From Nemertoderma westbladi (lineage: Eukaryota; Animalia; Xenacoelomorpha): a stretch of DNA of 64,000 bases. Shown piece after piece: positions 23,142 through 56,552 of the stretch. The stretch lies in contig JAUCBJ010007635.1 in NCBI GenBank assembly GCA_032718475.1, forward strand, positions 62,001 through 126,000. Direction: 5' to 3'. Numbering within the stretch: the first letter of the stretch is position 1; each line of letters begins with the position of its first letter. A program made the position numbers and the translations under genes. The notes beneath the pieces were generated by a model, which saw only the letters and a list, made by a program, of their open reading frames with translations, was not told where the DNA came from and made no database searches.

Positions 23142-23810
23142 ATGGCAGAGGAATTTATCAAACTTAATAATGATATTCTGGCAATGTTAAGGAATATTAA
23201 AGGCAAGAAAAGCGTATCCAATGATGACGAACGGGCGATAGCTGATCTTCTCGCCTCCATGACAGCCAAACACATGACAGTTATAGACAAGCTGGCGGAA
23301 TCGCGAGATAAGCTAGCTGAAGCCCGCCAGGACTCAATCACTGCCAAGGACGAACTGATCCAACACCTGAAAGGCCCCCGCCCATCCACACCTGCCGCTG
23401 CAACTCCCACCATTGGTACCCACCAGCGCCTGCATTCGCAACCCTCAGTCTCTGCCACGGAACCCAGCTACAGTGCGGTAACTACCGGCTCCTCTCAACC
23501 TCCGGCACATCCTCCTTACCAACGGCCTCCTGCTGTTCGAGGATGTAAAGCGGGCGGCTCGCTACAAGTGGTCCAATCACAACCGTCACGACAGGCACAT
23601 ATTCACATCGGGCGACTTGATCCATCAGTAACTCAAGATGACATTAAGGAATACTTACGCAAAGGAGGTTTTAACTTTGAAGATGTTATAGCTATTACTC
23701 CACTTGCAGCCTCACCGTTTCAGTGTTTTCATGTGGTCTGCAGTCAGGACGATAGGGCCATCTTAATGGACCCAGAGACATGGGAAGATGGAATCAGTAT
23801 ACGGATGTGA
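23142..23810 (+). pseudogene. Non-LTR retrotransposon ORF1-like protein (coiled coil + RRM-like C-terminal domain), cut at its 3' end by the element A LTR
   Basis: Helical N-terminus, Pro/Ser linker, then HIHIGRLDPSVTQDDIKEYL...FQCFHVVC...LMDPETWEDGISIR, resembling the C-terminal domain of CR1/L2/Jockey-group ORF1 proteins. The stop codon comes from the LTR start (TGTGA at 23806-23810). No ORF2 follows. Confidence 0.6.
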
Positions 23811-24340
23811 CGGGATCCAAGAGGGATCCCGATTTATCCGGTTGTGGTAATTTAGTCCACGCGTCCCCGCCGTGTATAAGGATGAAATAAATGACTGAGT
23901 TCTGAAGTTCGGTGTATAATAGGATGTTATAAGATATAGATATTGTAAATGTGTACAAGGCGGGATACGGTAACTAAAGTCCCGTGATCCCCTATCTAAA
24001 CTAATTGGCTGTACCCTACGCTAGCACTGCTGCACTGTGATGACTGAATAGGTAATATTACTGCCAAGTGGCTATACTGCACGGTTGGCCTAATTACTAC
24101 CTAATCGATGCCTTGCCCCCCTCTGATTGGTTGTTACCCTTGTTGGCGCCCCGTGGAGTATTCCCGTTCACTCCACCTGTTCTCTGGGTTAGGGGTTTGG
24201 CCCCTGACCCTCCATTGTGTGCTTCCTTCCCATTCTTATTGGGATGGCGCGAGTTGGTTAATTACCCAATCTCGCGGCTCCCAATATTGCTTATCGGCTA
24301 ATAACTTTATGGGGTGTTGGCGGGATTGAATAAGCTAACA
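23806..24340 (-). repeat. 3' LTR of element A (535 bp)
   Basis: TGTGACGGGATCC...GAATAAGCTAACA; matches 37620-38157, with differences confined to about the first 240 bp on the + strand. Confidence 0.96.
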
Positions 24341-24350
24341 CTCCCCCCCA
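24341..24350 (-). promoter_or_regulatory. Polypurine tract of element A
   Basis: + strand CTCCCCCCCA reads TGGGGGGGAG on the minus strand, immediately before the 3' LTR start TGTTAGC. Confidence 0.85.
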
Positions 24351-25048: not shown

Positions 25049-27592
25049 TTATCTGTTCCTCCTCACGTCCTCTTCCCTGGCCCGTTTCTTGGTTATCACC
25101 GCTCCTCTGGCATCATCCGCTTTCTGTTTCCGGACCTTTGCTGCCACTTCCTTGCTGATCCCGGTCGTCGGCTCCTTGGGCGCTGGTGTTATTAAAGCCC
25201 GATACCGCTTCGCCGGTGGCCCCTCAGAATGGCCTGGTTGTCTCCCTCGTGTGGCGTCCCATAGGATCATCTTCATTGCCTTTGGTACGTGTTCCGCCAA
25301 GAAATCCCTAAACTCCCTCCGGTTCTCTGGTGTCCACCTGTCCAGGTACCGTTGCGTGTTCATAACTCCGGCGAACGATGCCGCCGTAGCTACCTCTTGA
25401 TAGGTAAACGGTAACCTTCGCTTTATGATTTCCATGTGGGTCTCCTGGTTTATGAGGAAGAAACCCCACTTGAACTCTTGGGCCTTCATGCGCTGGCGCG
25501 TCATAGCCCCGACGTCGGCCCACTCCTCGAACCTCGTGAACTTCTCCTCGTCGCTCATCCAGTCGCACTCGCGTCCGTAGTGTCCCCGAAAGTGGCACTT
25601 TGGACATCGGTTATGCAACCGTGGACACGCCCCCATCCTGTGACTTGGTTCTCTACAATAGAGACAAAAGGTTCCCCGTTGGAACCGGTATAGGCAGCTG
25701 CTTTCCCGATGGGTCTGTCTCCCACAGTAGTCGCAGCCGAGTACCAATGTCTCGCGTCCCACCTCGTCCTTCGTCCCAATCGATCTCCGCGGTCTGTGGA
25801 GTCGCTGGTAGGCGAACTTCTCTACGTTGCTCTCCCTGTTTACGTCTATCTCTCCGCCCCTCTCGGGCATCGTCTCCCCGAATACTATCCGTGGTGCCGT
25901 CCCCGGTTGCTCGCCCAACCTGATGGTGCTCCCCGCGAAATCCATCGCCGGCCCCTCGTGCACCCAGGTCCGCTTGCCGGATCTGTTCCAGAAGGCCCTT
26001 GCCCCACTGGCCGTCACCACCCTTCCGCCAACCCAGTCTGTGTCCGAGTGGCCTATCCTTTCGATGGGCGGTATCTCTCCGAACTCGTCGTCGTCGTCCT
26101 CCTCTTCTGGTAGTGTCTCCAATCCCGGTATCCCGATGGATCCACTATGTCCCTTCCCGCCTTGGCTCTCGCCCGTAGCTCTCCATCCCTCTAGCTCCCT
26201 TAACTTCCTTGGCGGTTGGTCGCCCTCGGCGCCCGCTGGTATGGGCGTCGTTTGCAACCCCGACGTCGACTGTTTCGGCGATCCCACCGTCCATCCCAAT
26301 TCTCGTCCTAGAGACTCCCCCGAACTCCCTGACGAAGTCCAATGAAGTTCGTCTAGGCCCGCCTGTTCCTCGAAGCCGTAACTCTGTGCCCTGGCTTCCT
26401 CTTCCCTCTCCTCTGCTTCTATCCTCTCCCGTCTAGCGACTTCTTCCAGTCGCTTTGCTTCCCGTCTATCCATCTCTAGCTGCTCCCATCTCTGATACGG
26501 TGTATCTGTCTCCCCATCTACCAGATGTCGGCTGTTGTAGTACACCGACTCGCCCTTCAGCCCCGGGTGGTCTACCAGACCGTCAAAGGCCGTCTTAAAG
26601 GCTCTCCTGTAGCTTAGGGGTGATCCCGATAGCAGAAATGCCCCTGGTTCTCTTTCGATAACTACGGTCATGAATAAGTTAAGTAAACTTATCATCATCC
26701 AGTCCTCCTGCAGGATATATCGCTTCTGATATACCTTTATCGCTCCTCTGCGAAACTGATATACCTCCTGCTTTCCCGGTCTCGCTCCCCACTTCAGCGA
26801 GTTCGCTAGTTCTGCTCCGTATTCTTCCCTAAACTTCCCCCAATCCATTGGTTTGTGGCATACGAGCCCCAATAATTGGCCCATCGCCACCGCCCCGCAT
26901 TGGCCTGGGTTCTCGACCACCCCCAATCCATCCGGTGCCGTCATAGCCATAAAGACTTTCTGCATATCCAGGAGGTTGGTGGCGTCCGGACCGATGATCC
27001 TCTCCGCGTCCTCGCGAATCGCCGATCCCACTTTCGTCGTCGACTTCTCTCTTACTAAGACTTGTACCGCTTTCGGCAGTCGGTCTAATTTCGGCCCGTC
27101 CTTCTTCCCATACGTCCCTAGGTCGAATAAGAAGATGTCCCCATTTGGCGCTGCCAAATGCAAGAGTATGGTCCTGGCCGACCCTGCCGTTCCTCGTCTC
27201 GAACCCGCTTCGTCTTCCACGGTTCCCTCGTCATCTAGGATCATATATCCTCCTCTGTTGACGGACTCTATGAATCTTTTCCAGTCCTTCCTCGGCGATT
27301 CCCTCGGATACTTCGGAATCCCGAACTTCGCCTCGTCTCCTTTCACTACGTAGTGGAAGTGTTGGAAGATCGCGTTGTCCAGCGACGGCGTCCCGTAGGT
27401 CCCAACCAACCGCTGTTCGTGCGCCTCCCGGAAGTGATCCTGCAGCGCTCGTGCCGCGTGACCCCTTTCCAACCTCTCGTAGTATCCTCTCGTCTTCTCC
27501 TCCGGGTGTCTTTCGGTGAAATCCACCAATATTTCTTTTCCTCCTGACTCCGCTTTTCTCTTCCTGATCAGCTTGCTCGCCATTCCGAACAC
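25049..27592 (-). CDS. Accessory protein of element A: DEDD-type 3'-5' exonuclease domain + acidic linker + three CCHC-like zinc knuckles (first ATG at 27583)
   Basis: ExoI MILDDEG, ILLHLA..GDIFLFDL, LPKAVQVLV, ExoII KVGSAIRED, LLDMQ, ExoIII-like QKRYILQED. Knuckles CDYCGRQTHRESSC, CLYCREPSHRMGAC, CPKCHFRGHYGREC. 847-codon uninterrupted frame, same strand as pol. Confidence 0.85.
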   Translation of the reverse strand: MFGMASKLIRKRKAESGGKEILVDFTERHPEEKTRGYYERLERGHAARALQDHFREAHEQRLVGTYGTPSLDNAIFQHFHYVVKGDEAKFGIPKYPRESPRKDWKRFIESVNRGGYMILDDEGTVEDEAGSRRGTAGSARTILLHLAAPNGDIFLFDLGTYGKKDGPKLDRLPKAVQVLVREKSTTKVGSAIREDAERIIGPDATNLLDMQKVFMAMTAPDGLGVVENPGQCGAVAMGQLLGLVCHKPMDWGKFREEYGAELANSLKWGARPGKQEVYQFRRGAIKVYQKRYILQEDWMMISLLNLFMTVVIEREPGAFLLSGSPLSYRRAFKTAFDGLVDHPGLKGESVYYNSRHLVDGETDTPYQRWEQLEMDRREAKRLEEVARRERIEAEEREEEARAQSYGFEEQAGLDELHWTSSGSSGESLGRELGWTVGSPKQSTSGLQTTPIPAGAEGDQPPRKLRELEGWRATGESQGGKGHSGSIGIPGLETLPEEEDDDDEFGEIPPIERIGHSDTDWVGGRVVTASGARAFWNRSGKRTWVHEGPAMDFAGSTIRLGEQPGTAPRIVFGETMPERGGEIDVNRESNVEKFAYQRLHRPRRSIGTKDEVGRETLVLGCDYCGRQTHRESSCLYRFQRGTFCLYCREPSHRMGACPRLHNRCPKCHFRGHYGRECDWMSDEEKFTRFEEWADVGAMTRQRMKAQEFKWGFFLINQETHMEIIKRRLPFTYQEVATAASFAGVMNTQRYLDRWTPENRREFRDFLAEHVPKAMKMILWDATRGRQPGHSEGPPAKRYRALITPAPKEPTTGISKEVAAKVRKQKADDARGAVITKKRAREEDVRRNR

Positions 27593-28089
27593 TACACTCG
27601 CTCACCTGTAGGGTGGTGCCTTACCAAGGCGCAATACAGATGAGTGATGTACTAAGATGTTTCCTACAGTTCGATAATGGCCTGCTTTTCTACTTAACTG
27701 CGCCTTTCAAGCCTAATTTAATTTAATTAATTTCGGAGCTAGTAAATCAGCCTAATTTACGATTTCTGTCCGTTACTTTTATTATGTTCTAGAACGACTT
27801 TCCTTGTGTTACCACTATTTTCGATTTTAGCCCTATTCTATTTATTTATTTATTTTTCTTTGGTTCTACTGTCCTGCTACTTACTACTGCCTATGGGTTT
27901 ATTCTGTTCTCTCTCTGATCCCTATTCTGGCCTACTCAGTGGGCCTATGCAGTACAGCAGTATGCGTCGTGTGGCCACACGATTTATCCAGCTGCACTCA
28001 TATGCCCCCCTCTCGCTACTAACTCTACTTACTCCTAACTAATATCTATATCTTATTTTACCCCCTTTTGCCTCTTACTCTCTCTCTCT

Positions 28090-28926
28090 AACTAGTGGTA
28101 CTACGTACCCTCTAACTCTAACTCTATCGGTACTACCTACCCTCTAACTCTAACTCTAACTAGGCATTACGTACCCTCTAACTCTAACTCTAACTAGGTA
28201 CTACGTACCTACTAACTCTCTAACTATCGGTACTACGTACCCTCTGACTCTAACTCTAGGTACTACGTACCTACTAACTCTAACTCTAACTAGGTACTAC
28301 GTACCTACTAACCCTAACTCTCGGCACTACCTACCCTCTAACTCTATCTAGGCATTACGTACCCTCTAACTCTAACTAGGTACTACGTACCTATTAACTC
28401 TCTAACTATCGGTACTACGTACCCTCTGACTCTAACTCTAGGTACTACGTACCTACTAACTCTAACTCTAATTAGGTACCACGTACCTACTAACCCTAAC
28501 TCTCGGCACTACCTACCCTCTAACTCTATCTAGGCATTACGTACCCTCTAACTCTAACTAGGTACTACGTACCTATTAACTCTCTAACTATCGGTACTAC
28601 GTACCCTCTGACTCTAACTCTAGGTACTACGTACCTACTAACTCTAACTCTAATTAGGTACCACGTACCTACTAACCCTAACTCTCGGCACTACCTACCT
28701 CCTAACTCTATCTAGGCATTACGTACCCTCTAACTCTAACTAGGTACTACGTACCTACTAACTAACTAACTCTAGGTACTGCGTACCTGCTAACTAACTG
28801 ACTCTAGGTACTACGTACCTACTAACTAACTATCGGTACTACGTACCTACTAACTAACTAACTCTAGGTACTACGTACCTACTAACTAACTAACTCTAGG
28901 TACTACGTACCTACTAACTAACTAAC
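28090..28926. repeat. Composite minisatellite between pol and the accessory ORF of element A
   Basis: Many copies of GGTACTACGTACC separated by CTCTAA/CTAA runs, with a higher-order period of about 180 bp (28381-28560 matches 28561-28740); a T-rich tract follows at about 28927-28962. Confidence 0.9.
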
Positions 28927-29042
28927 TTTTATTTATTTTTTTTTTTTTATTTTATTTTATTTGTGTGGGAAGGGCGTCTCGCCCTCAATCCCACCCCCCT
29001 CAGTCCAAAACTTGGACGACTAAACTTCACACTAACTCTAAT

Positions 29043-32000
29043 TTAAGGTGCCCCTTCTAGAAGACAGCATTTACCTACTGCTCTCCTGTAGGTTTTTCTG
29101 TCTTTCGCACCTATCTTTCCACCTATCCGCACTTCTACCGATCGGACTCTTCCGTCCTCGTCGGAGTAGGTGCCTACAACTCTCGCCAACCGCCATTGGT
29201 TGTTGATGATAGTATCATCCGTGACGATTACGAGATCTCCCTCTCTCAACTCCCTGTTTGGCTTCCTCCAATTGCTTCGCTTATGGAGCGTGGGTAGGTA
29301 TTCTTCTACCCACCTCCTCCAATACTCTGTGCTAATTGCTTTAGCTACTTTCCAACTTTGCCGGGAGTGTATATCATCTGGGTCTACACCCCGCATATCT
29401 ATGGTCGCTGGCCTTTCCATCAGGAAATGGCTAGGCGTCAACACGTCTAGTGACTCAGGGTCATCATTCTCCGGGTATAGCGGTCTGCTATTAATGATCC
29501 CCTCGCACTTTGCAAGTACCGTCCGTAAGACGTCTTCAGTGACCATGTGGGTATTCATCAGTTTCGTCATTAGACGTTTCGAACTGCCCACCAGTCTTTC
29601 GACGCATCCTAGTGTATGTGGTGCATACGGCGTCCGTCTCTCCCACTTCACTTGTCGTCTTCTCATGGCCGCCCTGACTTCTTCTCCCTCCAAGATGTTT
29701 AAGGCCTCTGCCATCTCACTCTCTGCACCCACAAAGTTGGTGCCGTTGTCGCTATATATCACTGCGATCGTCCCACCTTTGCGGTCCCTAAACCTTTCTA
29801 AGGCGTTAATGAAGGCTGATGCGGTTGCATCTTGGGCGAGTTCTATCCCTACCGCCCGCGTATTGTTGCATACGAAGATAATACCGTAGCGTTTCTCCGT
29901 GTGTCGCATCACCTTGATCTTTATCGGCCCGAACATGTCCACACCGCAATGTGTAAATGGCGGGTCGTGCTGTCTTACCCTACTCGCCGGTAGTGGCGCC
30001 ATCTCCTGTACGGCTCGTTCCTTCTTCGCTCGTCGGCAGGTCTGGCACTGCCCCACTACCGCTTTGACCTTCTTCCTTAGTTGTTTGACCCAATAGGTCC
30101 TCCTTATCTCTGTGAGGGTTCGGTTGGTGCCCCCATGCAGTATCGATTTGTGGGAGTCCCATATGATCTGGTGGACTATAGGCGATCCTGTGGGAATGAT
30201 GATGGGTTTCGGTGGCACGACTATACTGTTGTTATATCCCACCCTTGAATTCATTACTAGGATCCCATCCTCGTTGAGTTGTGGTGACAGCGTGATCAAC
30301 TCGCTATCCCGTCGGAGATGTTGTTGGTTACCGACACGTTCCACCTCGTCGCCATAGTTCTTGCGTTGTTCATAGCGGATCACTGCCTTGGCCGCTCCTT
30401 CCAGATCTATGGTTGTCCTGGCCTTCTTGTCCTTGCCGACTCCCGCAAGGAAATTCCCAAAGGCTCTCCAGTACGCCACTAGTTTCTTGGTCTTATACCA
30501 ACTAGAACTGTAGCTGAGGAGTTTATCCGTTGGGTTATCGCACAGTTCCCTTCCTGGTTGCACGTCCCTGATCTCCCTCACCATCTGGGAGTATATCTCT
30601 TCTCCCTCTGAATCTCCTTCTCCTTCTGATATTGGTTCCGAGCCCGGGTCCACCTTCCTCATCGGCGGCCAGGCCTCTCTATCGCTCAGAAATTGTGGCC
30701 CATGTTGCCACAATACTTCCTTCTTCAGGAAAGTGTGGCGTTCCACGCCCCTCGACAGTAAGTCCGCTGGGTTCTCATCTGTTGGGCAGTAGTGCCACCT
30801 TTCCAGTTCTGTGCTCGCCCTTATTTCGTCCACTCTATTCGCGACGAATATCGGGTATCTCGTCTTTTCGTTGTGTAGCCAACCAAGCACTACCATGGAG
30901 TCCGTCCAGTAGTGTGTCTCCACTATGTTGGGAATTGTATCCACTAGGTAGGCTGTGGCTCTAACTCCTAGTCTCGCAGCTGTCAATTCTAACTTGGGAA
31001 CAGATGCTGAATCTGGCGGCGTTGACTTAGCTTTGCTAAAGGCTAGTCTGGGCTTGTGAGGCCCCTCTCGTTGTACTAAATAGAGTGCCGCTCCGTATGC
31101 CTCTAACGACGCGTCGGAGAACATATGTAGGTCCAGATTCGTCATGTTCCCGTCCGGGAAATACACTCGCGGCATGTTGTATGTTCCCATCCTCTCCAAG
31201 TCTCCTGTCCATTTGCTCCACTGTTTCTTAATGTCTTCAGGTACCTCTACGTCCCACTCATCCTTCAACTTATATACTCTCTTGAGTATCTGTTTCCCCG
31301 TGACTAGTAATGGGGATGCTAGGCCTAAGGGATCGTATATCCTTGCTATATACGATACGTAACCCCTCTTCGTATGGGTGTCTGCACCCTCCTGGCTCAG
31401 CTGATACTTCAGTTCGTCTGTTTTCCTATCCCATACGATTCCCAACGCCTTCTGCTGGGATTCCGTTCTCTTAATCGCCATGTCCTGCCCTTTGGCTGTT
31501 GTAGGGTTGTCCATGGTCGATTCTGGTTTCTTGTCCTCTATTTCCCTGATAAATTCTTCTGAACTGGATTGGAATTTGGTCAGGTTGAAGCCGGATCCTC
31601 TCAGGATGTCGCGAACCTCGCGCCCTGTTTCCAGTATTTCCTCAACCGTATTTCCAGACTCCATGCCGTCGTCTACGTAGAAACCGCGTTTGATCATGTC
31701 GACGGCCCTACTGCTATATCTATCCTCCTTCCCCTTTACCGTGTCTCTCACTGCCATAGTCGTCGTAAATGAGGACGACTTGGCCCCCATGTTTTGTACT
31801 ACCATCTTATATGTCGGTATTATAGGCGGTTCTTCTTCTCCGTTATACCATAAGAAGCGTTGACTGTCGCTATCTTCCTCTGTTACTCGGACTTGGTTGA
31901 ACATGCCTTCTATGTCACACGTGAAGGCGTGTTTCCCATTCCTAAATCTAAGTAGTACTTCTATGCCCGAATTGTATATGTTTGGGCCCTCTAGTAGGTA

Positions 32001-35000
32001 ATCGTTTAAGCATTTTCCGTCGGTCTTTGCCGATGCATCGACTACCATCCTAAGTTTACCTTTCTTTGGGTCTAAAGCTACGTGGAGTGGCAGGTAGTAT
32101 GTCCTGTCCGTGTTCGGTTCGTCGACCGGTAACTCCACGGCCCATCCTTTCTCGACGTACTTCTTAATGGTTTTGTGAATGTACTCGTTCTTCTCGGGGC
32201 TCCGTTGTAGTGTTTGTTTCAGCTTGCGGAGTCTCGTGAGTACCATCCCTCTATTATCGGGTAGCGGTATCTTCGGCAGTTTCCACACCATTCCTATTGT
32301 ATACCGCCCCTCATCACATGTCATGGATTCCTCCACACTTTGTAGAGCCTGCTTGTCTTCTACCGAGGTCCCGACTCCGGTCTCTTTCAGTCCCTCGAAG
32401 TCCTGCCTGAGCAGTCTTTTAAGCTGCTCCTCTGCTCCCTCGTCACCCATTTCCTGCATTGTTCCTGCGAACATGCATCCTGATGTCTCCGACATCCTGA
32501 ATGGTATCTTGCTCTTAATTGGACCACTTAGCGTCCACCCGAATGGCGTTAGTATGGCCACCGGGTCGCTCTGCTTGTCTTCGCCGAAGACCGTTTGCAT
32601 TCTCTCGTGGGCTGTTGGGCAGTCCATGCCTACTATGATGGATACCTTCCTAACGTCCACGTCCGGGATTGAGAAGTCAATGTTGTCCAGGAATTTGTAT
32701 TGCTCGACCTCGATGTTGGTTGGCCGCCTGGCATTGATGTTTATTGACTCTATTACTTGGATGGGGTCGATGGTTGCCCCATAATCGCATCCTGGTGCCA
32801 CTGCTGCAATTGCGCACCGTCCTGTCCTCATCTCTAGGATCTCGTCTTTGCTAGAGATGGTTGTCACCGCCATCCTGCTTGGCCTCGTTCTCAACCCTAT
32901 TTCTTCGGCTACCCATTCCTCAACTAATGTGAAGGCAGCTCCACTATCAACCAGCATTAGTGTTGTTACTGATCGATTGCCTTCTCCGATCACTCGCACT
33001 GGTACTACTCCAAGTAGCACTGTTCCTCTCTTCTTCGCCCCTATTGTGCTTGTTGCCATCGTCTGGCCTCTCCTTTGGCCAAACTTGACCGGCTTCTCCT
33101 GGCATTCCCTGGCCTTGTGTCCACTCTTCACACATCGCGAGCAGATTTTATTGCTCGACGCGTAATCTATCTGGTCTTGCCTCGGTAGCGCCTGCCAGTA
33201 CCTGCAGTTCATGGTTTTGTGAAGCGCATTTGCGTGTAACTGGCACTTGCTCTTTGGGTCGTAGCCCTCTTTATACAATGCGTTGCGTATCGCAGTTATG
33301 TTTGTACCAAAGTCCCTACTATTCTTATTGACTGGGTTTGACCTACTGGACGTACTGGGGTTATATTTATTCATGTTGTTATTGTTCCCCTGTCCGTCCC
33401 TTGATGTCGTCCTATCTTCGCTTGCCTGTGGACTTGCAGTCCCCTGCGTCGCTGCATATGGCAATGATTGCCTGAGTCTCGGTAACGCGTTCGATGTATT
33501 GTGCTCTGGTTTGGGCCTGTAGTGATCTGTCTTTGGTCCCTTTCCCAGGCTATCTTCACTATAGACTGGGTCCGTTATTAGTTCAGCCTCGTAATTTAAG
33601 AAGTTTGACATTTCTTCTAAACCTGGTTCCGCACCCTTCTTGTCTCGGGTGGAGAAAGCGATCTTCCTCCATTTGTTGCGCAGCCAGCTCGGTAGTGCCT
33701 GCGCTATCGTGGTGATGTTATTGGACGCGTTGAGTTCGTATGGTGCGTCTAGCGTCTTCAGCACGATCAACGCCTTCTCGACTTTGTTAGCAAACGTCTT
33801 AATGCTAACGGGATTATCCTGTAGGCCACCCGATGTTATGCCTCTCAGCGTCTGCCTGATGATCTTGGCCGGGTGCCCGTATTCCCTGTCCAGTGCCCGC
33901 CATGCTGTCGTGAAGCCGCCCTCTATTCCTTGGTATTGCCTCACGATATCGTATGCTGGGCCTCCCGTGTACACTTGTAGATACTTTAGGCACTCCGCCT
34001 GCGTCAAGTTTTTTGTTAGTATTTCGTTACTATACATTCGCCGAAACTGCAAGTATTCTTCCGGCCTGCTCCCATCGAATTTGAACGGTTCCACGGGTGG
34101 TAATTCGATCCTTGTTTTCAACGCATCGATCAACGTGGCCATCCCCATTGCCTGCGCTTCTAATGGATTCGACGGATGCTGTATAGTTTCCCCTGTCTGG
34201 TGCGGTTCGTCCGTCCTATTTCTTAATCTTCTCTGACTCGGATATGTCATCGGGGGTAGCGGCCCCCTCCATATGTCTGTATCACACGACCTGTTTTCGT
34301 CCAAGGGTTTCATTGTTCTTGCTACCATCGGGGTATATTGTTGATATTGTGATGGGGGAATGTCACCCTGTCCCCCCCCCACCGGTATGTCTGGTACTGG
34401 GGTTGATGTTAATACGTTGGGGCCCATGCACCTATCCGCGATAATTCCCCCTTCCCCTGGGTATATGTTATGTCCCTGCATGCTGTAGTCATACTGCTGT
34501 GCTGGTACCGGTATAGGCCTATCAGCTTCTGGCCTACTCGCCGGTATGTATTCCGCGACTTCCGGGTTTAATCCCGTTGTCCGCGCCATCCTATCGCCTA
34601 CATTGCCTCTCTCAGTATGGCCTACGGTATGTGCAGTAAGACCTACAGTATGCCCTACAGTCTGCATGTGTTGCTCGGGATCGAAGTTTATTCTTCTCGA
34701 ATAATCCTCCCCGCGGCTACCGTATTCTCGATCGGTAGATACATTCCGTCGGAAAGTTTCTCTTCGGCCCCCCTCTCTACTGTTCTCTTCTTCGTACCGG
34801 TACATCGCGTACCCCTCTCTCGGCGTGTAATGCGTCTCATCGGATCGCATCCCTCCGGGGCGACGGCAATCTCCCGGAGTCCGACCCCACTGACTCTCCG
34901 TTCTCATCTCGATTACCGACGGCTCGCTGTCCGTCCTCGCTCTTCTATCGTTTGCGGCGATACTTCTACTACTCCCTTCCTCTCTTCTCCTATCAGTGGA

Positions 35001-37541
35001 ATATTCCCGCTCACGAGATCTCTCGTCGACCTCCCGGTTAAACCCCACTGTTCTTCTTTCCTCCTCTGATCGGGCTCGACGCTCCGTCTGCCCTCCCGCG
35101 ACGTCAACCTGTCTTTCTCTGCTCGATCGTACGTCGCTGGGGATACTCGCAATCCCCCTATTACTTTCCGTCGCCGGTTGTTGCGGTTTACCTTGTTCGG
35201 CCCTCGCATTGTCCGCTGACGGCTGTGGGACACTCTCTGCCCCCCCCCTCTCGCCGCTAACTCTCTGTTGTGGGGCCCTCGTAGCCCCCCCCCACTCGCT
35301 ACATCTAACTTCGCTACCTCTCTCCCCGCCATTATATACCTCTCTAGTCGACACATCAACCCTACTACAGTCTGGTCTATTTACCCCCGCCTCTCCCTCT
35401 GCTATTGCGTGGCCTTCCAGGCCCTCTACTCCCTGCCTACCAACTACGTGGCCTACCAGGCCCTCTGCTCCTTGTCTACTAACTACGTGGCCTACCAGGC
35501 CCTCTTCTCTTTGTCTACTAACTACGTGGCCTACCAGGCCCTCTTCCGGCTGGTTATGTAGGCCCGACGTGTTCACATTAATAGCACCCATATTGGAAAC
35601 GGAATTAATTTGCTCGTTCGAAACAAAACCATTCGCATTATTCTGCGCGACTACGTTATCTGAATTATTTTGTAAATTCGGGCATGGATCATTATTTAAA
35701 TTATTTGGATTATTTTGTGTAATCGCGTTATTTAGATTATTTAGTAAGTTCGAATTTGGGTTATTATTTTGATTATTTAAATTATTTTGCGTAATTACAT
35801 TAATATTAGAATTATTTTCTACATTAATACTAGGATTGTTCTGATTTAAATTTAAATTACTACCACTAGGTAAAGTATTTCCTGCAATAAAGGTTTGATT
35901 AAAGTTATCCCATACGGTACTATTAATATCAACAACTTCTACTGTACCATCATTATTACCCCTCCCGCCCGTACGGTCACACCAGTTTTGGGTCTGTCGT
36001 GCGGTCCCTGTCAGTGGGGTATTAATAAACGTATCTAGGGCCCCCGGGTCCTCAAAAATACTCGAGCCGGCCCCGCTTGCAGACGGCGACGCTTGCGCCA
36101 GTCGCAGCTCGTGCGCCCGTCTAATCTTACGTTCCGCAAGCACACTTTGGTGTCTCTTTATTTTCTCTTGCTCTCGCTCAGCCTCTGCCCTTCTCTTCTC
36201 ACACTCCTGGGTGTCCCGACTGCCCGACTCTACTATACTCCTAGCGCTCTCCCTTCGTCTCGCCTCACGCTCTTTGCGTTCCTTTTCCCTTCTCGTCTCA
36301 TATTCCTTGCGTTCCTTTTCCCTTTTTGCCTCACATTCCTTGCGTTCCTTTTCCCTTTTTGCCTCACGTTCCCTGCATTCCCCGTCCTCCCTTTCCTCAC
36401 GCTCTCTGCGTTCCCTTTCCTCCCTTTCCTCACGCTCTCTGCACTCATTTTCCTCTATTTCGTCTCTCTCCCTAAGGCTTCTCAAAGCTCTTTCGACCCT
36501 TTCTCCGGTCTCCTTAATCAATTCCGCTTCCCTCATTAACCGCACTCTCCCCTCCTCTAACCGTTCCTCCATTTCCTTCTGACCTTGCTCTACCACGTTG
36601 AGACGGTATGCGGCACCTATCTCTCTCACCACTCTTCCTTTCGCGGAGGATGTAGCAGACTTATCGGTTGCGACGGACCCCCTCCGCCTTCCCGACCTAC
36701 TAACTTTCCCCCGCTTCCCGGAACTTTCTCCGACCGACGAGGCCGAATCCTCGTGGTTAACCTCGGATTCGCCCCCCTCAGGTCTCCTCCAACCCACTGG
36801 TTTTACTCCCCGGGCATCGACCAAGTATGGCCCTATGTACACTGGCGCTACGCTAGGTTCCATACTCCCACACTCCCATAGTTCAAACAGTTCGCCTGCA
36901 ATTCCCTTTGCTCTCTCCCCGGCTAGTTCTCTCTGCCCAAAACGTATCAGGTAATTTAAGTGTCTGTCCGACTCACCTAGTCGCTTTCTCAGTCTCACCT
37001 CGTCTACCTTCGCCCCTTGCTTCTTGGCGTCGTTTATCAGCTTCCGGGTCGCGTTGTAGGCCCGTCGAAGTCGGTCAGAAACCCCGACGTCCTCGTCGCC
37101 GACCTCTCCTCCGTCCCTCCGGGTCCGACGTCGTACCGGCGGCTCCACCGTCGCCGTTCCGGTGGGCCGCTCGTCGCCCTCGGCCTGTAGCTGGCCGGCG
37201 ACATCGGTACCGATCTCTCCTCCGTCTCTTCGCGTCCGGCGTCGCACCGTCGGCCCCACCGTCGCCGTTTCGGTGGGCCGCTCGTCGCCCTCGGCCGGTA
37301 GCTGGCCGGCGACATCGGCGCGCCGTTCTCCGTTCCGTGTCGACTCATCTCCTTCTCCCTCCGTCTCGCTCTCCCTTTCCCTCTGCTCGACTTCGGGTTC
37401 CAGACCCTCCTCGTTCTGGACTTCCGGTTCGCCCGTTATCGATGGCTCCGGTGTCGTGGGCCTGTATCGCTTGGTCACGGCCTCGCGGATCGTTAGGTCT
37501 TCGTCCGGGGTCCGCGGCGGTGTCTCGCCCGATTCACTCAT
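29043..37541 (-). CDS. BEL/Pao Gag-Pol polyprotein (2832 aa) with a low-complexity N-terminal extension of about 1100 aa
   Basis: Gag LPPVEPFKFDG; knuckles CQLHANALHKTMNC and CSRCVKSGHKAREC; protease LVDSGAAFT; RT FTCDIEGMF...FYVDDG; RNase H LHMFSDAS...WTDSMVV...ENPADLLSRG; integrase H-H-CQTC, GVDMFGP, YSDNGTNF, GCVERLV. Confidence 0.96.
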   Translation of the reverse strand: MSESGETPPRTPDEDLTIREAVTKRYRPTTPEPSITGEPEVQNEEGLEPEVEQRERESETEGEGDESTRNGERRADVAGQLPAEGDERPTETATVGPTVRRRTRRDGGEIGTDVAGQLQAEGDERPTGTATVEPPVRRRTRRDGGEVGDEDVGVSDRLRRAYNATRKLINDAKKQGAKVDEVRLRKRLGESDRHLNYLIRFGQRELAGERAKGIAGELFELWECGSMEPSVAPVYIGPYLVDARGVKPVGWRRPEGGESEVNHEDSASSVGESSGKRGKVSRSGRRRGSVATDKSATSSAKGRVVREIGAAYRLNVVEQGQKEMEERLEEGRVRLMREAELIKETGERVERALRSLRERDEIEENECREREEREERERREREEREDGECREREAKREKERKECEAKREKERKEYETRREKERKEREARRRESARSIVESGSRDTQECEKRRAEAEREQEKIKRHQSVLAERKIRRAHELRLAQASPSASGAGSSIFEDPGALDTFINTPLTGTARQTQNWCDRTGGRGNNDGTVEVVDINSTVWDNFNQTFIAGNTLPSGSNLNLNQNNPSINVENNSNINVITQNNLNNQNNNPNSNLLNNLNNAITQNNPNNLNNDPCPNLQNNSDNVVAQNNANGFVSNEQINSVSNMGAINVNTSGLHNQPEEGLVGHVVSRQREEGLVGHVVSRQGAEGLVGHVVGRQGVEGLEGHAIAEGEAGVNRPDCSRVDVSTREVYNGGERGSEVRCSEWGGATRAPQQRVSGERGGAESVPQPSADNARAEQGKPQQPATESNRGIASIPSDVRSSRERQVDVAGGQTERRARSEEERRTVGFNREVDERSREREYSTDRRREEGSSRSIAANDRRARTDSEPSVIEMRTESQWGRTPGDCRRPGGMRSDETHYTPREGYAMYRYEEENSREGGRRETFRRNVSTDREYGSRGEDYSRRINFDPEQHMQTVGHTVGLTAHTVGHTERGNVGDRMARTTGLNPEVAEYIPASRPEADRPIPVPAQQYDYSMQGHNIYPGEGGIIADRCMGPNVLTSTPVPDIPVGGGQGDIPPSQYQQYTPMVARTMKPLDENRSCDTDIWRGPLPPMTYPSQRRLRNRTDEPHQTGETIQHPSNPLEAQAMGMATLIDALKTRIELPPVEPFKFDGSRPEEYLQFRRMYSNEILTKNLTQAECLKYLQVYTGGPAYDIVRQYQGIEGGFTTAWRALDREYGHPAKIIRQTLRGITSGGLQDNPVSIKTFANKVEKALIVLKTLDAPYELNASNNITTIAQALPSWLRNKWRKIAFSTRDKKGAEPGLEEMSNFLNYEAELITDPVYSEDSLGKGPKTDHYRPKPEHNTSNALPRLRQSLPYAATQGTASPQASEDRTTSRDGQGNNNNMNKYNPSTSSRSNPVNKNSRDFGTNITAIRNALYKEGYDPKSKCQLHANALHKTMNCRYWQALPRQDQIDYASSNKICSRCVKSGHKARECQEKPVKFGQRRGQTMATSTIGAKKRGTVLLGVVPVRVIGEGNRSVTTLMLVDSGAAFTLVEEWVAEEIGLRTRPSRMAVTTISSKDEILEMRTGRCAIAAVAPGCDYGATIDPIQVIESININARRPTNIEVEQYKFLDNIDFSIPDVDVRKVSIIVGMDCPTAHERMQTVFGEDKQSDPVAILTPFGWTLSGPIKSKIPFRMSETSGCMFAGTMQEMGDEGAEEQLKRLLRQDFEGLKETGVGTSVEDKQALQSVEESMTCDEGRYTIGMVWKLPKIPLPDNRGMVLTRLRKLKQTLQRSPEKNEYIHKTIKKYVEKGWAVELPVDEPNTDRTYYLPLHVALDPKKGKLRMVVDASAKTDGKCLNDYLLEGPNIYNSGIEVLLRFRNGKHAFTCDIEGMFNQVRVTEEDSDSQRFLWYNGEEEPPIIPTYKMVVQNMGAKSSSFTTTMAVRDTVKGKEDRYSSRAVDMIKRGFYVDDGMESGNTVEEILETGREVRDILRGSGFNLTKFQSSSEEFIREIEDKKPESTMDNPTTAKGQDMAIKRTESQQKALGIVWDRKTDELKYQLSQEGADTHTKRGYVSYIARIYDPLGLASPLLVTGKQILKRVYKLKDEWDVEVPEDIKKQWSKWTGDLERMGTYNMPRVYFPDGNMTNLDLHMFSDASLEAYGAALYLVQREGPHKPRLAFSKAKSTPPDSASVPKLELTAARLGVRATAYLVDTIPNIVETHYWTDSMVVLGWLHNEKTRYPIFVANRVDEIRASTELERWHYCPTDENPADLLSRGVERHTFLKKEVLWQHGPQFLSDREAWPPMRKVDPGSEPISEGEGDSEGEEIYSQMVREIRDVQPGRELCDNPTDKLLSYSSSWYKTKKLVAYWRAFGNFLAGVGKDKKARTTIDLEGAAKAVIRYEQRKNYGDEVERVGNQQHLRRDSELITLSPQLNEDGILVMNSRVGYNNSIVVPPKPIIIPTGSPIVHQIIWDSHKSILHGGTNRTLTEIRRTYWVKQLRKKVKAVVGQCQTCRRAKKERAVQEMAPLPASRVRQHDPPFTHCGVDMFGPIKIKVMRHTEKRYGIIFVCNNTRAVGIELAQDATASAFINALERFRDRKGGTIAVIYSDNGTNFVGAESEMAEALNILEGEEVRAAMRRRQVKWERRTPYAPHTLGCVERLVGSSKRLMTKLMNTHMVTEDVLRTVLAKCEGIINSRPLYPENDDPESLDVLTPSHFLMERPATIDMRGVDPDDIHSRQSWKVAKAISTEYWRRWVEEYLPTLHKRSNWRKPNRELREGDLVIVTDDTIINNQWRLARVVGTYSDEDGRVRSVEVRIGGKIGAKDRKTYRRAVGKCCLLEGAP

Positions 37542-37610
37542 CTCGTCTGCTCGGTGGAGTTCGACTAGCTAGCGTGGGGTTCTTTGAGTTTAACTAGGGC
37601 GGCAGCTCGG

Positions 37611-37619
37611 TTTAGTTAC
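37611..37619 (-). promoter_or_regulatory. Non-tRNA primer-binding position of element A (GTAACTAAA), complementary to an LTR-internal 9-mer
   Basis: Minus strand reads ...GTCACA|GTAACTAAACCG with no TGG. On the same strand the LTR contains TTTAGTTAC (37794-37786; also 23978-23970). Confidence 0.6.
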
Positions 37620-38157
37620 TGTGACGGGATCCAAGAGGGATCCCGATTTATCCGGTTGTGGTAATTTAGTCCACGCGTCCCCGCCGTGTGTAAGGGTGAA
37701 GTAAAGATAATTGAGTTCTGAAGTTCGGTGTATAATAGGAAGTTATAAGATATAGATATTGTGAATGTGTACAAGGCGGGATACGGTAACTAAAGTCCCG
37801 TGATCCCCTATCTAAACTAATTAACTATTATCCTACGCTAGCACTGCTACACTGAGATGACTGAATAGGTAATATTACTGCCAAGTGGCTATACTGCACG
37901 GTTGGCCTAATTACTACCTAATCGATGCCTTGCCCCCCTCTGATTGGTTGTTACCCTTGTTGGCGCCCCGTGGAGTATTCCCGTTCACTCCACCTGTTCT
38001 CTGGGTTAGGGGTTTGGCCCCTGACCCTCCATTGTGTGCTTCCTTCCCATTCTTATTGGGATGGCGCGAGTTGGTTAATTACCCAATCTCGCGGCTCCCA
38101 ATATTGCTTATCGGCTAATAACTTTATGGGGTGTTGGCGGGATTGAATAAGCTAACA
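37620..38157 (-). repeat. 5' LTR of element A (538 bp)
   Basis: TGTGACGGGATCC...GAATAAGCTAACA, upstream of the gag ATG (37541) on the minus strand. Confidence 0.96.
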
Positions 38158-40142: not shown

Positions 40143-41374
40143 TGTAAAAGCCTTTGCTGAATTGCCCCGTTATTTTTATTATCTTTTACATTAAAATACT
40201 CTGTAGTTGATTTAATAAGTGTAAGAGACCGTATTATTGCTGTATCAGTGTTTTTAGAGGATCTAAGACTTATTTCCTCCGTATGTGTACTGTGAAAGGT
40301 ATATTTTATGATTCTATGGCAATTCGTGACGCAAAGGGGTGATAGCTACTCTTGAACAGTAGTTACTATGACTACGGTTAACAGCTGACATTCATACGTG
40401 TTGATTTCCTTTGTTCTACGGCGTCTCTCAGTTCAGTCAGCCAATGAGAGCGTTTTTGTGGCTCCTTGTAGAGAAAATTTCCGAGAAATGACGCAATGCC
40501 TATGTGCAGTGTTTACATTCAGTCCTGAGCCTAAGAGAGAACGGCTTGGAAGTATTTTTGTGCTATACTGTTTTTTAGTCGTACACTAGTAGGTTTAATT
40601 ATAAAGGGCATATATCCTTTAACATGCCTATGTATCATACATCCTGACTGCTGAAACATTGCAAACTCGTAACAATCAGTGTTCAGTTGTTGTTTTATAC
40701 TGCTATTTACTGTCAGTTCTTCATAATATGGTTGATGAATTATTATATTTGGAATAACGATAAATAACCCCGCAACCCAATATTCTTGATATACCGAAGG
40801 TAAGAGAGAAAGGTTACCAATAACGATTGTGACTTATGTTAAAGTGGTTTGAAGTGAATCTAATGTTATTTGATAGACCCTACAGGGTCAGCCTGTGTTC
40901 CTTTTATATGTGACTAAAATCAGTGAAGATTGGCAGATTAGTGTGCAGTATTGTGCAGCATTGTGTATGAGCGAGTCTGTTAAAGAAGCAATTCCTAAAG
41001 AATGCGCCATATATGTGAATTATAATTGAGCCATATCGTTGTGAGTAGTTTAAGTCATAACTCTGTTTATATAGATAAAGCGCCACGTCCTAAAGGAACT
41101 GTTAATATTACCAAAGGTGAATAATATTGTCAGAGATTATATAATACTGTCAGTCGAATAATACATTAGGCTTACATAGCAATAAAAATTAAACCGTCGA
41201 ACCCAATCTCCCGGGAATATCCAGCGGGTGAATGGTCGCGCACGGATTGGTTTCGACTAGTGTAGTGAATCAAGTACTTGTCATAGACTAAAAAACAGAT
41301 TTAATATCTAGAAGACCTGAATCCAAGATCTTAATTTGGTGGGTTAAACTGCCAAAGGTCTGAAAGCGCGAACA
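40143..41374 (+). repeat. 5' LTR of element B (1232 bp)
   Basis: TGTAAAAGCC...AAAGCGCGAACA. TATAAA at 40600-40605. Only a few visible differences from the 3' copy. Confidence 0.97.
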
Positions 41375-41386
41375 TTAAAGGATATA
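41375..41386 (+). promoter_or_regulatory. Non-tRNA primer-binding position of element B (TTAAAGGATATA), complementary to an LTR-internal 12-mer
   Basis: ...GAACA|TTAAAGGATATAGC with no TGG. The exact reverse complement TATATCCTTTAA is at 40611-40622 and 62378-62389. Confidence 0.7.
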
Positions 41387-41651
41387 GCTTCTTTATTGCA
41401 GTAAGCAATAAAGTCGAAAGTACCGGTCGACCGGTAACCAGTAGGCCTGACTGCCTGATCATCCGGACCGGTACCTATTTCCGTATAAGTACAGCAGTAT
41501 TATTCGATTTGATTATATATGCCGGTAGGTCTTAATAATTAATCGGGGACGCCTGGTTTTTATTGGGATTTTACTTAGGCCTATTTCTGTCAGTTTTATT
41601 TGTTTGTAGGCAAGTATTGAACAGAAGGCGTGTAAACCTTATCAGATTGTA

Positions 41652-42225
41652 CAGACAATTTGTAGGCTGAGCTGTTGTCTGATTGCTGTTAAGTCCGAAC
41701 GAATTGCAGTGTGTGTAGAGCACCTGTCCGATTAAGTACGATTAGGCAGTAGGGGCAGTGAATACTGTAAGGTAAACCCCCAATTAAAGAATAAGTCGCA
41801 CTACTGGGTTAGAGCGCATACTCCCTAATCATTTCGGAGTCTGCATGTCCTGTGGTTTATTTAGGCTTGAGAGTAGTCTGCCATCGTTTGGTCTGTACTT
41901 TGTTTGTGTAAGTCTGTACAGGTAGCGTATAATTTATTTAGATAATTTGTAGGCTGGATAGTTGTCTGGCTGTTATTAGGTCTGAACGGATTGCCGCGTG
42001 TGTAGAGCATCTGTCCGATTAAGTACGATTAGGCAGTAGGGGCAGTGAATACTGTAAGGTAAACCCCCAACAAAAGAATAAGTCGCACTACTGGGTTAGA
42101 GCGCATACTCCCTAATCATTTCTGAGTCTGCATATACCGTAGTTTGTTTAGGCTTGATAGTAGTCTGTCAGTGTTCGGTCTGTATTTTGTTTGAGTAGTT
42201 TGTACGCGTAGCGTAATATTTATTA
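41652..42225. repeat. Two tandem direct repeats of about 288 bp in the 5' leader of element B
   Basis: AGACAATTTGTAGGCTG... (41652) recurs as AGATAATTTGTAGGCTG... (41940), with a long shared core CTGTCCGATTAAGTACGATTAGGCAGTAGGGGCAGTG...GAGCGCATACTCCCTAATCATTT. Confidence 0.9.
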
Positions 42226-43159
42226 TTCAGAGTTTATGCGATTATCCGCAACATTCATTCCCCAAGTTTGTTCCTACAGTAATTGTGTTTGTTATACATA
42301 CCGCTATAGTTAAATTAACCCCGGTACTACACGGGCTGCTCGGCGTAGGTAAAGACTGGTGATTTTGTGCATCGGTCACTCCAGCAGATGCCGTGGTTCT
42401 TTTAGCTGTTCAAGTATATTTAACTACTGATTATCTGTTGTACAAGTACTCGTACCTAATTTAGGGTTTAGTGTACAGTACTTTCCGAAGTAATTATTGT
42501 AGGCATTATATTTGTGTTGTAAAGTGGTTGATAGGCACATTGGATAGCTCTATTAACTTCTAGGTAGGGACAATCCGTGATACATAACGTTGCACCTATA
42601 GCGATACGGCTATAGGTCGTCAGGCGGTGGCATTTTCCTATCTAGACAACGCAGTGTATTTACTACTACTTATTATTTCAAACACCGTAATACCCTGTCC
42701 GTGTAAAAACCAGTTTTCTAACCCTTTGTTAGACTGGTTTGTAGACTTCTTGTAAAATTACCCTAAAAATTCGTATTTGTGTTTTTGTAAATTTTTGTGT
42801 TTATTTAGAGATTGTAATCTCAACCCGATTTGTACGTAATTTGTAGTATTAAGTAACTTAGGTAAATTAGTATTATTTGTTTTAGTGTCCTGTACGTAAC
42901 ACTTCACTGAAAGCGCACCGCTTTGTGTAGTGATTACTCCCCAGAAATAATAACATTTATTTCAACATTGACGAAACCCATTAAAACGGGTATAAATATA
43001 TTATAAATCAAATCCAACGATTTATAAATAGTAGGCCTACCATCTAACCATTAGGTCTCAATATCAGTTGGATTACTGCTTAAATAACGGTAATAAAGTA
43101 AGTTAAAGTAACCAAGTAACCCTTTAAATTCAGAAATTCAGTTATTTTTAAAATAATTG

Positions 43160-43456
43160 ATATACCGGTATTTACGATAGGCCTATTATCTTATTTCTAT
43201 AAATCTAGGCTGAAATTATACCGGTACTTGTAATTAATTCTATTTCAGAATTATATATCCTACAAACTGAAAGCTGTATACCGGTATTCCAGATAAGCCT
43301 ATTATATATTTGTATATATTTGTGCTAAAATTATACCGGTATCCTGTGATAAACCTAGTCTGTGATAATACTTATATAGTTATATATACTATAAGTATAC
43401 CGGTATTCTAATATATTATATATATATCAAGCTACACTGAGTAGCAGTACCGGTAA
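43160..43456. repeat. Degenerate array of about 57-bp period with six TACCGGTA palindromes upstream of gag
   Basis: TACCGGTA at about 43163, 43219, 43279, 43334, 43398 and 43448 in an AT-rich background. Confidence 0.75.
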
Positions 43457-43545
43457 TTGATTACTAGGCTAGCAATTAATACTGAGTTACTAGACTTGCT
43501 TAGACTGTAATATAGCAGTAGGCATTCAACTGTACATACCTAGTC

Positions 43546-48767: not shown

Positions 48768-49832
48768 CAACATATGGAGTGGGTGTGTGACTCGATTATT
48801 TTATATTATATTATTATTTTTATATTTATGTATGTATTACTATGTAATTCTATTATAATCGTTTTCTTTAATTTTATTCAGTAGAATGTTATTTTAGCGA
48901 TTATTTAGTAGATTAGTGCAATATATATTCGCGTTTATTACTTAATTACGTATATATTATATTAGTGCGACGGCGAAGAAATAATTATTTTTTCCCTTTC
49001 CTTACTGTCCGTATTATATTATAAATACGTAACTACAGTAAGAGGAAATGTCTGTACTTATTAAAGTACAATAAAGCCACTACTATATTTAAGTATTATT
49101 GGTAGGCAGAGTATTAGGAATGCAAAGTTCAGATCCTCGTGTCTCGGCTAAACCAAGCTCTGGGTAGACCTTGGAAACGACTTGCCTCTTCACACTGACA
49201 TTGCTTCGTGCGATATTGCTCTCATACCGTATATTAAATAATACATATAGTAGTGTGATGTCACTTTAACAGTAGCGTATAACGCAAAATAAATCTGTTA
49301 AACCCTTTGACCATCTGTAATTCTAGTCGATTAAGATATCGTGGCACCCACCGATATACTTGAAAGACAAATTATAGAATCAGTGGTTAACGTCCCCAGA
49401 CAAGTTCTGGAATAAATCGGTGCCCATCTCAAATATTAATTATTTAATATTTGCAAATCTAATAAGTCAAAATCTGTAAAATTCAGATCCTTTAACAATT
49501 CTAGTCAATTAAGATATCGTAGCATTTACCGATATTCTTAAAGAGACAATGTGCTTAGAATTAAGGATCTTGTGTCCCTAGACATGTTCTAGAATAGAAT
49601 TATGTCCATTTAATTATCAAATAATAAAATTTCAGGGAATCAATTTAAATTCATGCCTTTTAATGAATTTAATAAATTGCCATTTTTACGCAATTTATAA
49701 CATTCCCAAAATTCCATTAATTAATAGATCAAGGGAGCGGAGATTTATCTTATTATGCATATGAGTGTGCGAAAGTCTCCCAAACATAGTCAATAGCCGA
49801 TAAAATTCATAAAGTCATGTATAAAACAGAAC

Positions 49833-50258
49833 TGTCATGACAACCAATATGTGACGTCATACAATATTGCGGTGGACGGGTGTTGTAATTAATTTAATAT
49901 CATTTAAATTGTTAACCGTGCACAATGTGTCGTCACCCTTATGTAATACTGTTTGTATAGTGACAACTCCACATTCTGTACACCACAACATTCAATATCA
50001 GACCGTTAATTAACAATTAATTAAGGTCATGTTGATGCCTATGTGAATACTACAGATAAAAAGGCTTTGCCAGGTTTGGCAGAATGCACTCACTATCTTC
50101 CAAGCTCTGTCACTGTACATACAGTAGGGGCTTATTTACATGTTTAGTACAGTAGATTATTCTTAAGTTAATATAATCAATTAAAGTCATCTTTCAATTC
50201 ACTTTCAATTCATGGAGAGCGGCAATAACTTGGGCTTACTTACGCTACTTCTATGACA
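49833..50258 (+). repeat. 5' LTR of element C
   Basis: Identical by eye to 56553-56978. Confidence 0.97.
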
Positions 50259-56543: not shown

Positions 56544-56552
56544 AAGGGGGAC
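56544..56552 (+). promoter_or_regulatory. Polypurine tract of element C
   Basis: AAGGGGGAC immediately before the 3' LTR. Confidence 0.8.

What the first reader, a model, noticed from the sequence alone, without database searches (positions are those of the whole stretch)
25049..27592. Element A env-position ORF is a DEDD exonuclease with three zinc knuckles, not an envelope
Seen: motif order DxE (LDDEG, about 27235), LHLA..IFLFDL, LP..V..LV, KVG.AI..D, LDMQ, then Q..Y follows the RNase D/WRN/mut-7(Nibbler)/EXD exonuclease pattern (about 26690-27260). Three knuckles lie at about 25560-25740. There is no signal peptide or transmembrane segment, and both ends are basic (KLIRKRK; KKRAR). Known: extra ORFs in BEL/Pao elements such as roo, Tas and some Cer elements are env-like. 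Inference: an RNA-binding nuclease acting on element RNA or host small RNAs.
Basis: partly seen in the sequence, partly recalled or inferred. Interest (0 to 1): 0.8.

Follow-up and report, generated by a model that had tools for sequence, protein, structure and literature searches.

The report
Retrotransposon carries exonuclease instead of envelope
Where related jumping genes sometimes carry an envelope gene, this BEL/Pao retrotransposon and dozens of distant relatives carry a separate gene for a protein predicted to fold as a 3'-5' exonuclease joined to three zinc knuckles, which likely binds and trims RNA ends and may help the element evade the host's RNA-based silencing.

Summary
Confirmed. 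ORF2 (25049-27583, minus strand, 844 aa) lies between pol and the 3' LTR of an intact BEL/Pao element. It has no transmembrane segment. Its N-terminal domain is predicted as a DEDDy exonuclease (Z about 15 to Nibbler/NrnC, 14.4 to WRN; family profile hits EXD2 at E=1e-9), with D117, E119, D192, Y289 and E293 (Glu where Asp is usual). Three CCHC knuckles and a conserved helical module follow. Variants among copies are mostly synonymous (34 of 40 shown). It belongs to a family that Pfam misses: a second, 17%-identical member lies in element B of this window; 40 metagenome loci have integrase upstream (37 with Pao-specific domains); ORF2 and integrase trees agree in 11 of 13 strong splits. Catalytic residues are lost in 30 of 76 non-redundant relatives that keep the domain, so RNA binding is likely the core. 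Function is untested; my best guess is counter-silencing on RNA 3' ends (0.4). Self-primer trimming fails as a general role (24 of 25 relatives have tRNA-type PBS), although A and B themselves look self-priming. Precedent: DEDDy ORF3s in rotifer LTR elements. Verdict: new variant of a known kind.

The parts
37620..38157 (-). 5' LTR of element A (538 nt, TG...CA)
   Evidence: 97% identical to 23806-24340; ends shown
37611..37619 (-). PBS position of element A: no tRNA-type TGG; perfectly complementary (9 nt) to LTR positions 364-372 (37786-37794), a likely self-priming arrangement
   Evidence: 75 of 20000 resampled LTRs contain it; paired in the MFE structure
29043..37568 (-). single gag-pol reading frame of BEL/Pao type (DUF1759, knuckle, protease, RT, Pao RNase H, integrase, DUF5641)
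27584..29042 (-). 1459-nt spacer between pol and ORF2, with an A-rich/AATAAA tract (28927-28962) and an 830-nt tandem array (28086-28919)
25049..27583 (-). ORF2, 844 aa: DEDDy exonuclease, coiled helix, disordered linker, three CCHC knuckles, helical module, basic ends
26651..27382 (-). predicted DEDDy exonuclease domain (about residues 68-311): Exo I D117/E119, Exo II D192, Exo III Y289/E293
   Evidence: 34 of 40 shown variants synonymous
25565..25735 (-). three tandem CX2CX4HX4C zinc knuckles (residues 617-673)
25250..25552 (-). conserved helical module after the knuckles (E..x.D.G..T..R...WGF pattern), pLDDT about 80-95, no known family found
24341..24349 (-). polypurine tract
23806..24340 (-). 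3' LTR of element A (no target-site duplication found)
57578..61831 (+). second family member: exonuclease + three-knuckle ORF of element B (Exo I near 59729, Exo II near 60032, Exo III near 60356, knuckles from 60902), 17% identical to A's exonuclease domain
40143..63131 (+). element B: BEL/Pao-type element with 98.9% identical LTRs and a 5-bp TSD; gag and protease present, RT and integrase missing; 12-nt PBS complementary to its own LTR; interrupted by element C
49833..56978 (+). element C (control): intact BEL/Pao element without ORF2, tRNA-type PBS, identical LTRs

Best explanation
ORF2 is a separately encoded accessory gene of BEL/Pao retrotransposons whose protein is predicted to be a DEDDy 3'-5' exonuclease joined to three zinc knuckles, and it likely binds single-stranded RNA ends and trims or holds them so as to shield the element from host RNA-based silencing. 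Shown here: position, open frame, motifs, no TM segment, purifying selection, co-inheritance with pol, and repeated loss of catalytic residues in relatives. Predicted: the fold. Inferred step by step: (1) ORF2 is made from its own spliced or internally promoted mRNA, because it has its own ATG 1.46 kb after the pol stop. (2) The knuckles and helical module grip an unpaired RNA stretch and feed its 3' end to a two-metal site (D117/E119/D192/E293), as the knuckles do in trypanosome RNase D. (3) The substrates are RNAs that restrict the element: small RNAs aimed at it, or decay-marking 3' tails on its RNA. (4) Catalytically dead relatives do a similar job by binding alone.
For: Fold and motifs. 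Selection: 34 of 40 shown variants synonymous against 33% expected, p=2e-11. Co-inheritance: 11 of 13 strong integrase splits recovered, 27 elements. Not needed for core replication: element C, with identical LTRs, lacks it. In all 30 relatives checked, ORF2 is a frame separate from pol. The domain persists after catalytic loss in 30 of 76, with at least 8 state changes on the tree. Precedents: knuckles raise RNA binding and cleavage in TbRND (PMC7797062); arenaviral ExoN suppresses innate immunity (PMC7968707).
Against: No activity, substrate, expression or localisation data exist. Exo III has Glu for Asp, and mutating the equivalent Asp nearly abolishes TbRND activity (D230A), so A's enzyme may be weak. 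In A the knuckles lie about 300 residues from the domain, against about 28 in TbRND. TE-encoded anti-silencing is rare and narrow in the literature (PMC6719617). Stable co-divergence and purifying selection are not the signature of an arms race. In rotifers DEDDy ORF3s did not clearly correlate with copy number.
Confidence: 0.4

Rival explanations
1. A replication helper: co-packaged through its nucleocapsid-like knuckles, it trims primers or polishes or proofreads cDNA 3' ends. In the Glu-bearing (DEDE) sub-lineage that includes A and B, it may trim the self-primer back to the PBS duplex.
For: A and B, the two exonuclease-bearing elements of this window, both have a PBS complementary to their own LTR (9 nt, 75 of 20000 resamples; 12 nt, 6 of 20000), while exonuclease-less C has a tRNA-type PBS. 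The six DEDE proteins group loosely, and one clade is not rejected (p-AU 0.61). The fold is also that of WRN and Pol I proofreading domains.
Against: 24 of 25 relatives' leader regions have a TGG tRNA-type PBS, 10 of them with all four acids intact. A 12-element clade with intact pol has lost catalysis. ORF2 is not fused to Gag-Pol. In Tf1 the self-primer is made by RNase H (recalled, not checked here). No DEDE relative with a visible PBS was obtained.
Confidence: 0.3
2. An RNA adaptor of the Egalitarian/EXD1 kind: the domain binds a structured signal in the element's RNA for export, transport to the germline nucleus or packaging, and catalysis is incidental.
For: Repeated catalytic loss with the domain kept. 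Egalitarian and EXD1 are among the structural matches, including an Egalitarian complex with I-factor RNA. A has a long helix (362-410) and basic termini.
Against: 42 of 76 relatives keep all four acids. Basic C-terminal tails are seen in only some relatives.
Confidence: 0.22
3. A captured host gene carried passively, or a cryptic envelope.
For: No function has been shown; one clade (L008/L032/L072) has no pol in the 0.9-1.9 kb upstream.
Against: Purifying selection; deep co-divergence with integrase; no TM segment (5 of 47 relatives reach hydropathy 1.8); no glycoprotein match in the viral structure library at E<=0.001, where the 3 hits are exonucleases.
Confidence: 0.04

Closest known systems
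DEDDy ORF3 of bdelloid rotifer Juno/Vesta LTR retrotransposons and Terminons (PMC5408684; PMC6431247)
   Same: RNase D-like DEDDy exonuclease as a separate ORF in the env position of an LTR element, without TM; function unknown; the same hypotheses (3'-end processing, silencing) were offered.
   Different: Those lineages are not BEL/Pao (Ty3/gypsy-like, recalled). Their motif is given as DEED. No triple CCHC array in ORF3 is described (only a Cys-His-Cys motif in two families). Acquisition there was judged recent and repeated, whereas here the gene co-diverges with integrase and has dead clades. I could not compare the sequences.
Trypanosoma brucei RNase D (TbRND; PDB 7c42/7c45; PMC7797062)
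   Same: RNase D-type exonuclease followed by a CCHC knuckle array; top profile and Foldseek hit.
   Different: A cellular gRNA U-tail trimmer with four knuckles on a short linker. Here there are three knuckles after a long disordered linker, plus an extra helical module. Identity is 16-17%, so convergence of architecture is as likely as descent.
EXD2 / WRN-exo / Nibbler (mut-7) / NrnC / Egalitarian / EXD1 (DEDDy, PF01612-like)
   Same: Fold (Z 13-15) and motif order; both active and dead members occur.
   Different: 10-17% identity. These are cellular genes. A has Glu at Exo III. The source lineage is not resolved here.
env-like ORFs of BEL/Pao elements (roo F-like; mosquito chuvirus-like glycoproteins; PMC13524379)
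   Same: Same genomic slot, downstream of pol.
   Different: No signal peptide, TM segment or fusogen fold.

Membership tests
BEL/Pao LTR retrotransposon (element A) | TG...CA LTRs, PPT, gag-PR-RT-RH-IN order | tested here: met
BEL/Pao LTR retrotransposon (element A) | Pao-specific domains (PF05380, PF03564, PF18701) | tested here: met
   E=1e-39, 1e-10, 4e-23
BEL/Pao LTR retrotransposon (element A) | tRNA primer-binding site (usual, not strictly defining) | tested here: not met
   no TGG; PBS position complementary to own LTR
BEL/Pao LTR retrotransposon (element A) | assignment to a named superfamily (BEL, Pao, Tas, Suzu, Sinbad...) by RT phylogeny | not testable with these tools
   no reference elements available as sequences
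DEDDy 3'-5' exonuclease | DnaQ-like fold | tested here: met
   predicted model; WRN Z 14.4, rmsd 2.9 over 180 residues; Nibbler Z 15.1
DEDDy 3'-5' exonuclease | Exo I DxE, Exo II D, Exo III YxxxD | tested here: inconclusive
   D117, E119, D192 and Y289 are present; Exo III acid is E293 in A. DEDD in 41 of 91 family rows, DEDE in 6
DEDDy 3'-5' exonuclease | acids clustered in one metal site | tested here: inconclusive
DEDDy 3'-5' exonuclease | metal-dependent 3'-5' activity | not testable with these tools
   needs an assay
Envelope glycoprotein | signal peptide, TM anchor, fusogen fold | tested here: not met
Rotifer retroelement DEDDy ORF3 pool | sequence kinship with Juno/Vesta/Athena DEDDy ORFs | not testable with these tools
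   sequences not available as tool records
ZFD-containing RNase D (TbRND type) | exonuclease plus C-terminal CCHC array | tested here: met
   (architecture only; orthology not tested)
ZFD-containing RNase D (TbRND type) | uridine preference | not testable with these tools
   needs an assay

The most novel reading that the evidence does not exclude
BEL/Pao elements have carried, since early in their diversification, their own nuclease/pseudo-nuclease counter-defence protein against animal small-RNA silencing. In one sub-lineage (DEDE, including A and B) it accompanies, and may have enabled, a switch from tRNA priming to self-priming, which I found no report of for BEL/Pao.
Probability: 0.2. Interest if true: 0.88.

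Novelty: new variant of a known kind. Interest (0 to 1): 0.66.

Why it matters
A 2019 review (PMC6719617, passages) lists only three TE-encoded anti-silencing mechanisms, all from plants. A widespread, enzymatically assayable accessory gene with natural active and dead clades gives a direct way to ask whether animal retrotransposons fight small-RNA silencing. It would also give the unexplained rotifer DEDDy ORF3s a tractable counterpart. It shows as well that ORFs in the env slot of BEL/Pao elements should not be filed as env by position: this family is nearly invisible to Pfam (3 of 45 relatives hit PF01612, all below the cut-off).

Tried and rejected
Self-primer trimming as the family's general role: rejected, because 24 of 25 leader regions have a tRNA-type PBS (L079, the exception, probably does not include its leader). 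Read-through fusion to Pol: not supported; ORF2 is a separate frame with its own ATG, although 7 of the 40 loci tabulated continue in frame after the pol stop. A VANC-like role for the tandem array before ORF2: not general; 1 of 24 relatives' spacers has any array, and it is tiny. Single-sequence fold: failed. Word-index protein searches: nothing at E<=0.001. Related-locus search with the single protein: nothing. Knuckle pattern in viral contigs: 0. Atlas: exonuclease domain 0.94-0.95 to 3'-5' exonuclease clusters; knuckle module under 0.9, a lead only. Rfam: 0 matches in 23000-64000; tRNA genes: 0. Earlier findings: none. Expression: no RNA holder listed. Docking of the knuckle module on the exonuclease domain was not obtained, because the complex predictor was not available. 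The wide structural search was not obtained, so the helical module's fold is untested. No host genome was held.

Full report
Observation. Element A is a minus-strand LTR retrotransposon. Its LTRs lie at 37620-38157 and 23806-24340 (97% identical), with a PPT at 24341-24349. One gag-pol frame carries Pao-specific Pfam domains (PF05380 E=1e-39, PF18701, PF03564). After a 1459-nt spacer comes ORF2, ATG 27583 to stop 25049, 844 aa. The three knuckles are CX2CX4HX4C at residues 617, 640 and 660, and the highest hydropathy window is 1.3, so there is no TM segment or signal peptide.

Identity of the domain. Alone, the protein hits nothing in Pfam or PDB sequences, and it folds badly. A search of 1.84 billion representatives gave 72 hits, 71 of them through the knuckle region. 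Many carry an alignable N-terminal domain with DxE, KxGSxIxxD, DTQ and YxxxD motifs. A profile of 27 of these sequences hits TbRND (6e-10, both domains), EXD2 (1.1e-9), WRN (1.5e-5) and Egalitarian (9e-4). With a 62-row alignment, AlphaFold2 gave a mostly confident domain at about residues 68-340 (core blocks pLDDT 85-96, loops lower), a disordered linker (409-608) and a confident knuckle-plus-helical module. Foldseek returned 32 matches at E<=0.001; those listed are all DnaQ-like. Re-alignment gave Z 15.2 (NrnC), 15.1 (Nibbler), 14.4 (WRN; rmsd 2.9 over 180 residues). The viral library gave three exonucleases and no glycoprotein at E<=0.001. The catalytic positions in A are D117, E119, D192, Y289 and E293; Exo III is Glu, as in 6 of 91 family rows. 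I could not measure distances between them in the model.

Selection and abundance. Contigs of two DNA runs give a summed depth of about 40,000-60,000 over ORF2, similar to pol, against 28-51 over the 23067-23633 flank. The tool warns that this is no copy number, so it is only a hint of a large family that mostly includes ORF2. In the exonuclease region no indels were listed. Of the 40 best-supported variants shown (of 98), 34 are synonymous, against 33% expected for random transitions.

A family, tied to BEL/Pao. The window holds a second member in element B (57578-61831, +), 17% identical in the exonuclease domain. A degenerate knuckle pattern retrieved 120 metagenome loci (about 300 estimated), 80 with long flanks. 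By my count, 97 of the 120 come from eight assemblies with neighbouring accession prefixes, so they are not a broad sample. Forty-eight of the 80 have the exonuclease domain in the same frame. Forty have a same-strand integrase upstream, and 37 of these 40 hit PF05380 or PF18701. Of 34 loci with at least 4 kb upstream of the knuckles, 30 have a Pao hit; of the other four, one is filled by the ORF itself and three lack the exonuclease. For 27 elements, 11 of 13 well-supported integrase splits recur in the ORF2 tree, and all conflicts involve L076. Of 76 non-redundant domains, 42 keep all four acids, 30 have lost at least one and 4 are truncated. One dead clade of 12 rows is supported in the integrase tree (quick search), and at least 8 intact/dead changes are needed on the 74-row tree (2 rows dropped). 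Bias: retrieval was by knuckles and the context queries were Pao proteins, so knuckle-less forms and other hosts of the gene would be under-seen.

Priming. A and B have no tRNA-type PBS. Their first 9 and 12 post-LTR bases are complementary to a site inside their own LTR (75 and 6 of 20000 resampled LTRs), and these bases pair in the predicted RNA structures. Element C, which lacks ORF2, has a TGG PBS. This suggested self-primer trimming. However, 24 of 25 leader regions of relatives have a TGG PBS, 10 of them with intact catalytic residues, which rejects it as the family's role. A narrower version stays open: the six DEDE proteins, including A and B, group weakly (SH-aLRT 71-87; one clade not rejected, p-AU 0.61), and none of the other four has a known PBS.

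Mechanism. The constant features are an RNA-binding-type architecture and a frame separate from Gag-Pol. Catalysis is dispensable in several lineages, and the gene is dispensable for transposition in C. In TbRND, knuckles bind the RNA and raise cleavage. I therefore favour action on RNA 3' ends in defence of the element (0.4) over a replication helper (0.3) or an Egalitarian-like adaptor (0.22). All substrate claims are inference; the points against are listed with the best explanation.

Literature. PMC5408684 (parts 1-3 of 5 and passages) reports DEDDy ORF3s in rotifer Juno/Vesta elements and Terminons, and says none had been reported in retrotransposons before. PMC7797062 (abstract and sections 13, 14, 16, 20). 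Passages only: PMC3118150 (BEL/Pao survey; no 'exonuclease' in the main text; its supplements were not read and could bear on prior annotation), PMC13524379, PMC3601003, PMC4600332, PMC11599104, PMC5718144, PMC6719617, PMC6431247, PMC7968707. The listings of ten searches showed no report of an exonuclease-knuckle ORF or of self-priming in BEL/Pao. Subscription papers, Repbase and GyDB were not searchable, so prior annotation cannot be excluded.

Verdict. The feature is real and correctly read. It is a new variant of a known kind: a BEL/Pao accessory DEDDy-knuckle gene family with active and dead clades, function untested. Interest 0.66.

Noticed in passing
window 37611-37619 with 37786-37794; window 41375-41386 with 40611-40622: Elements A and B lack a tRNA PBS. 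The first 9 and 12 bases after the 5' LTR are perfectly complementary to an internal LTR site, and A has an 8-bp hairpin at the U5 end. This resembles Tf1/Tj1-type self-priming (PMC4600332); searches showed no BEL/Pao report in their listings.
   Followed up: partly
window 40143-63131: Element B lacks RT and integrase (protease runs in frame into the RNase H tail) yet keeps an open 1418-aa exonuclease ORF with a roughly 700-aa unexplained N-terminal extension; LTRs are 98.9% identical.
   Followed up: partly
window 1-23047: A 23-kb array of a 45-nt satellite.
   Followed up: no
window 23048-23805: A short low-depth stretch with a 227-aa open frame (23127-23810, +) between the satellite and A's 3' LTR; A has no TSD, so it may be a recombinant or its flank may be rearranged.
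   Followed up: no
window 38155-38701, 40100-40142, 63132-63353: A short dispersed repeat of about 230-300 nt (SINE- or MITE-like) flanks A; element B is inserted inside one copy.
   Followed up: no
L008, L032, L072 (one 507-aa ORF; L032:1908-3431): The same family member occurs in three metagenome contigs with Asn at the Asp positions, ends right after the knuckles, and has no pol in 0.9-1.9 kb upstream: a non-autonomous or domesticated copy.
   Followed up: partly
L005, L015, L043, L051: ORF2 relatives with N-terminal extensions of about 500-900 aa of unknown nature, like element B.
   Followed up: no
window 28927-28962: Clustered AATAAA and an A tract just after the pol stop on the sense strand: a possible internal polyadenylation site separating gag-pol from ORF2.
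   Followed up: no
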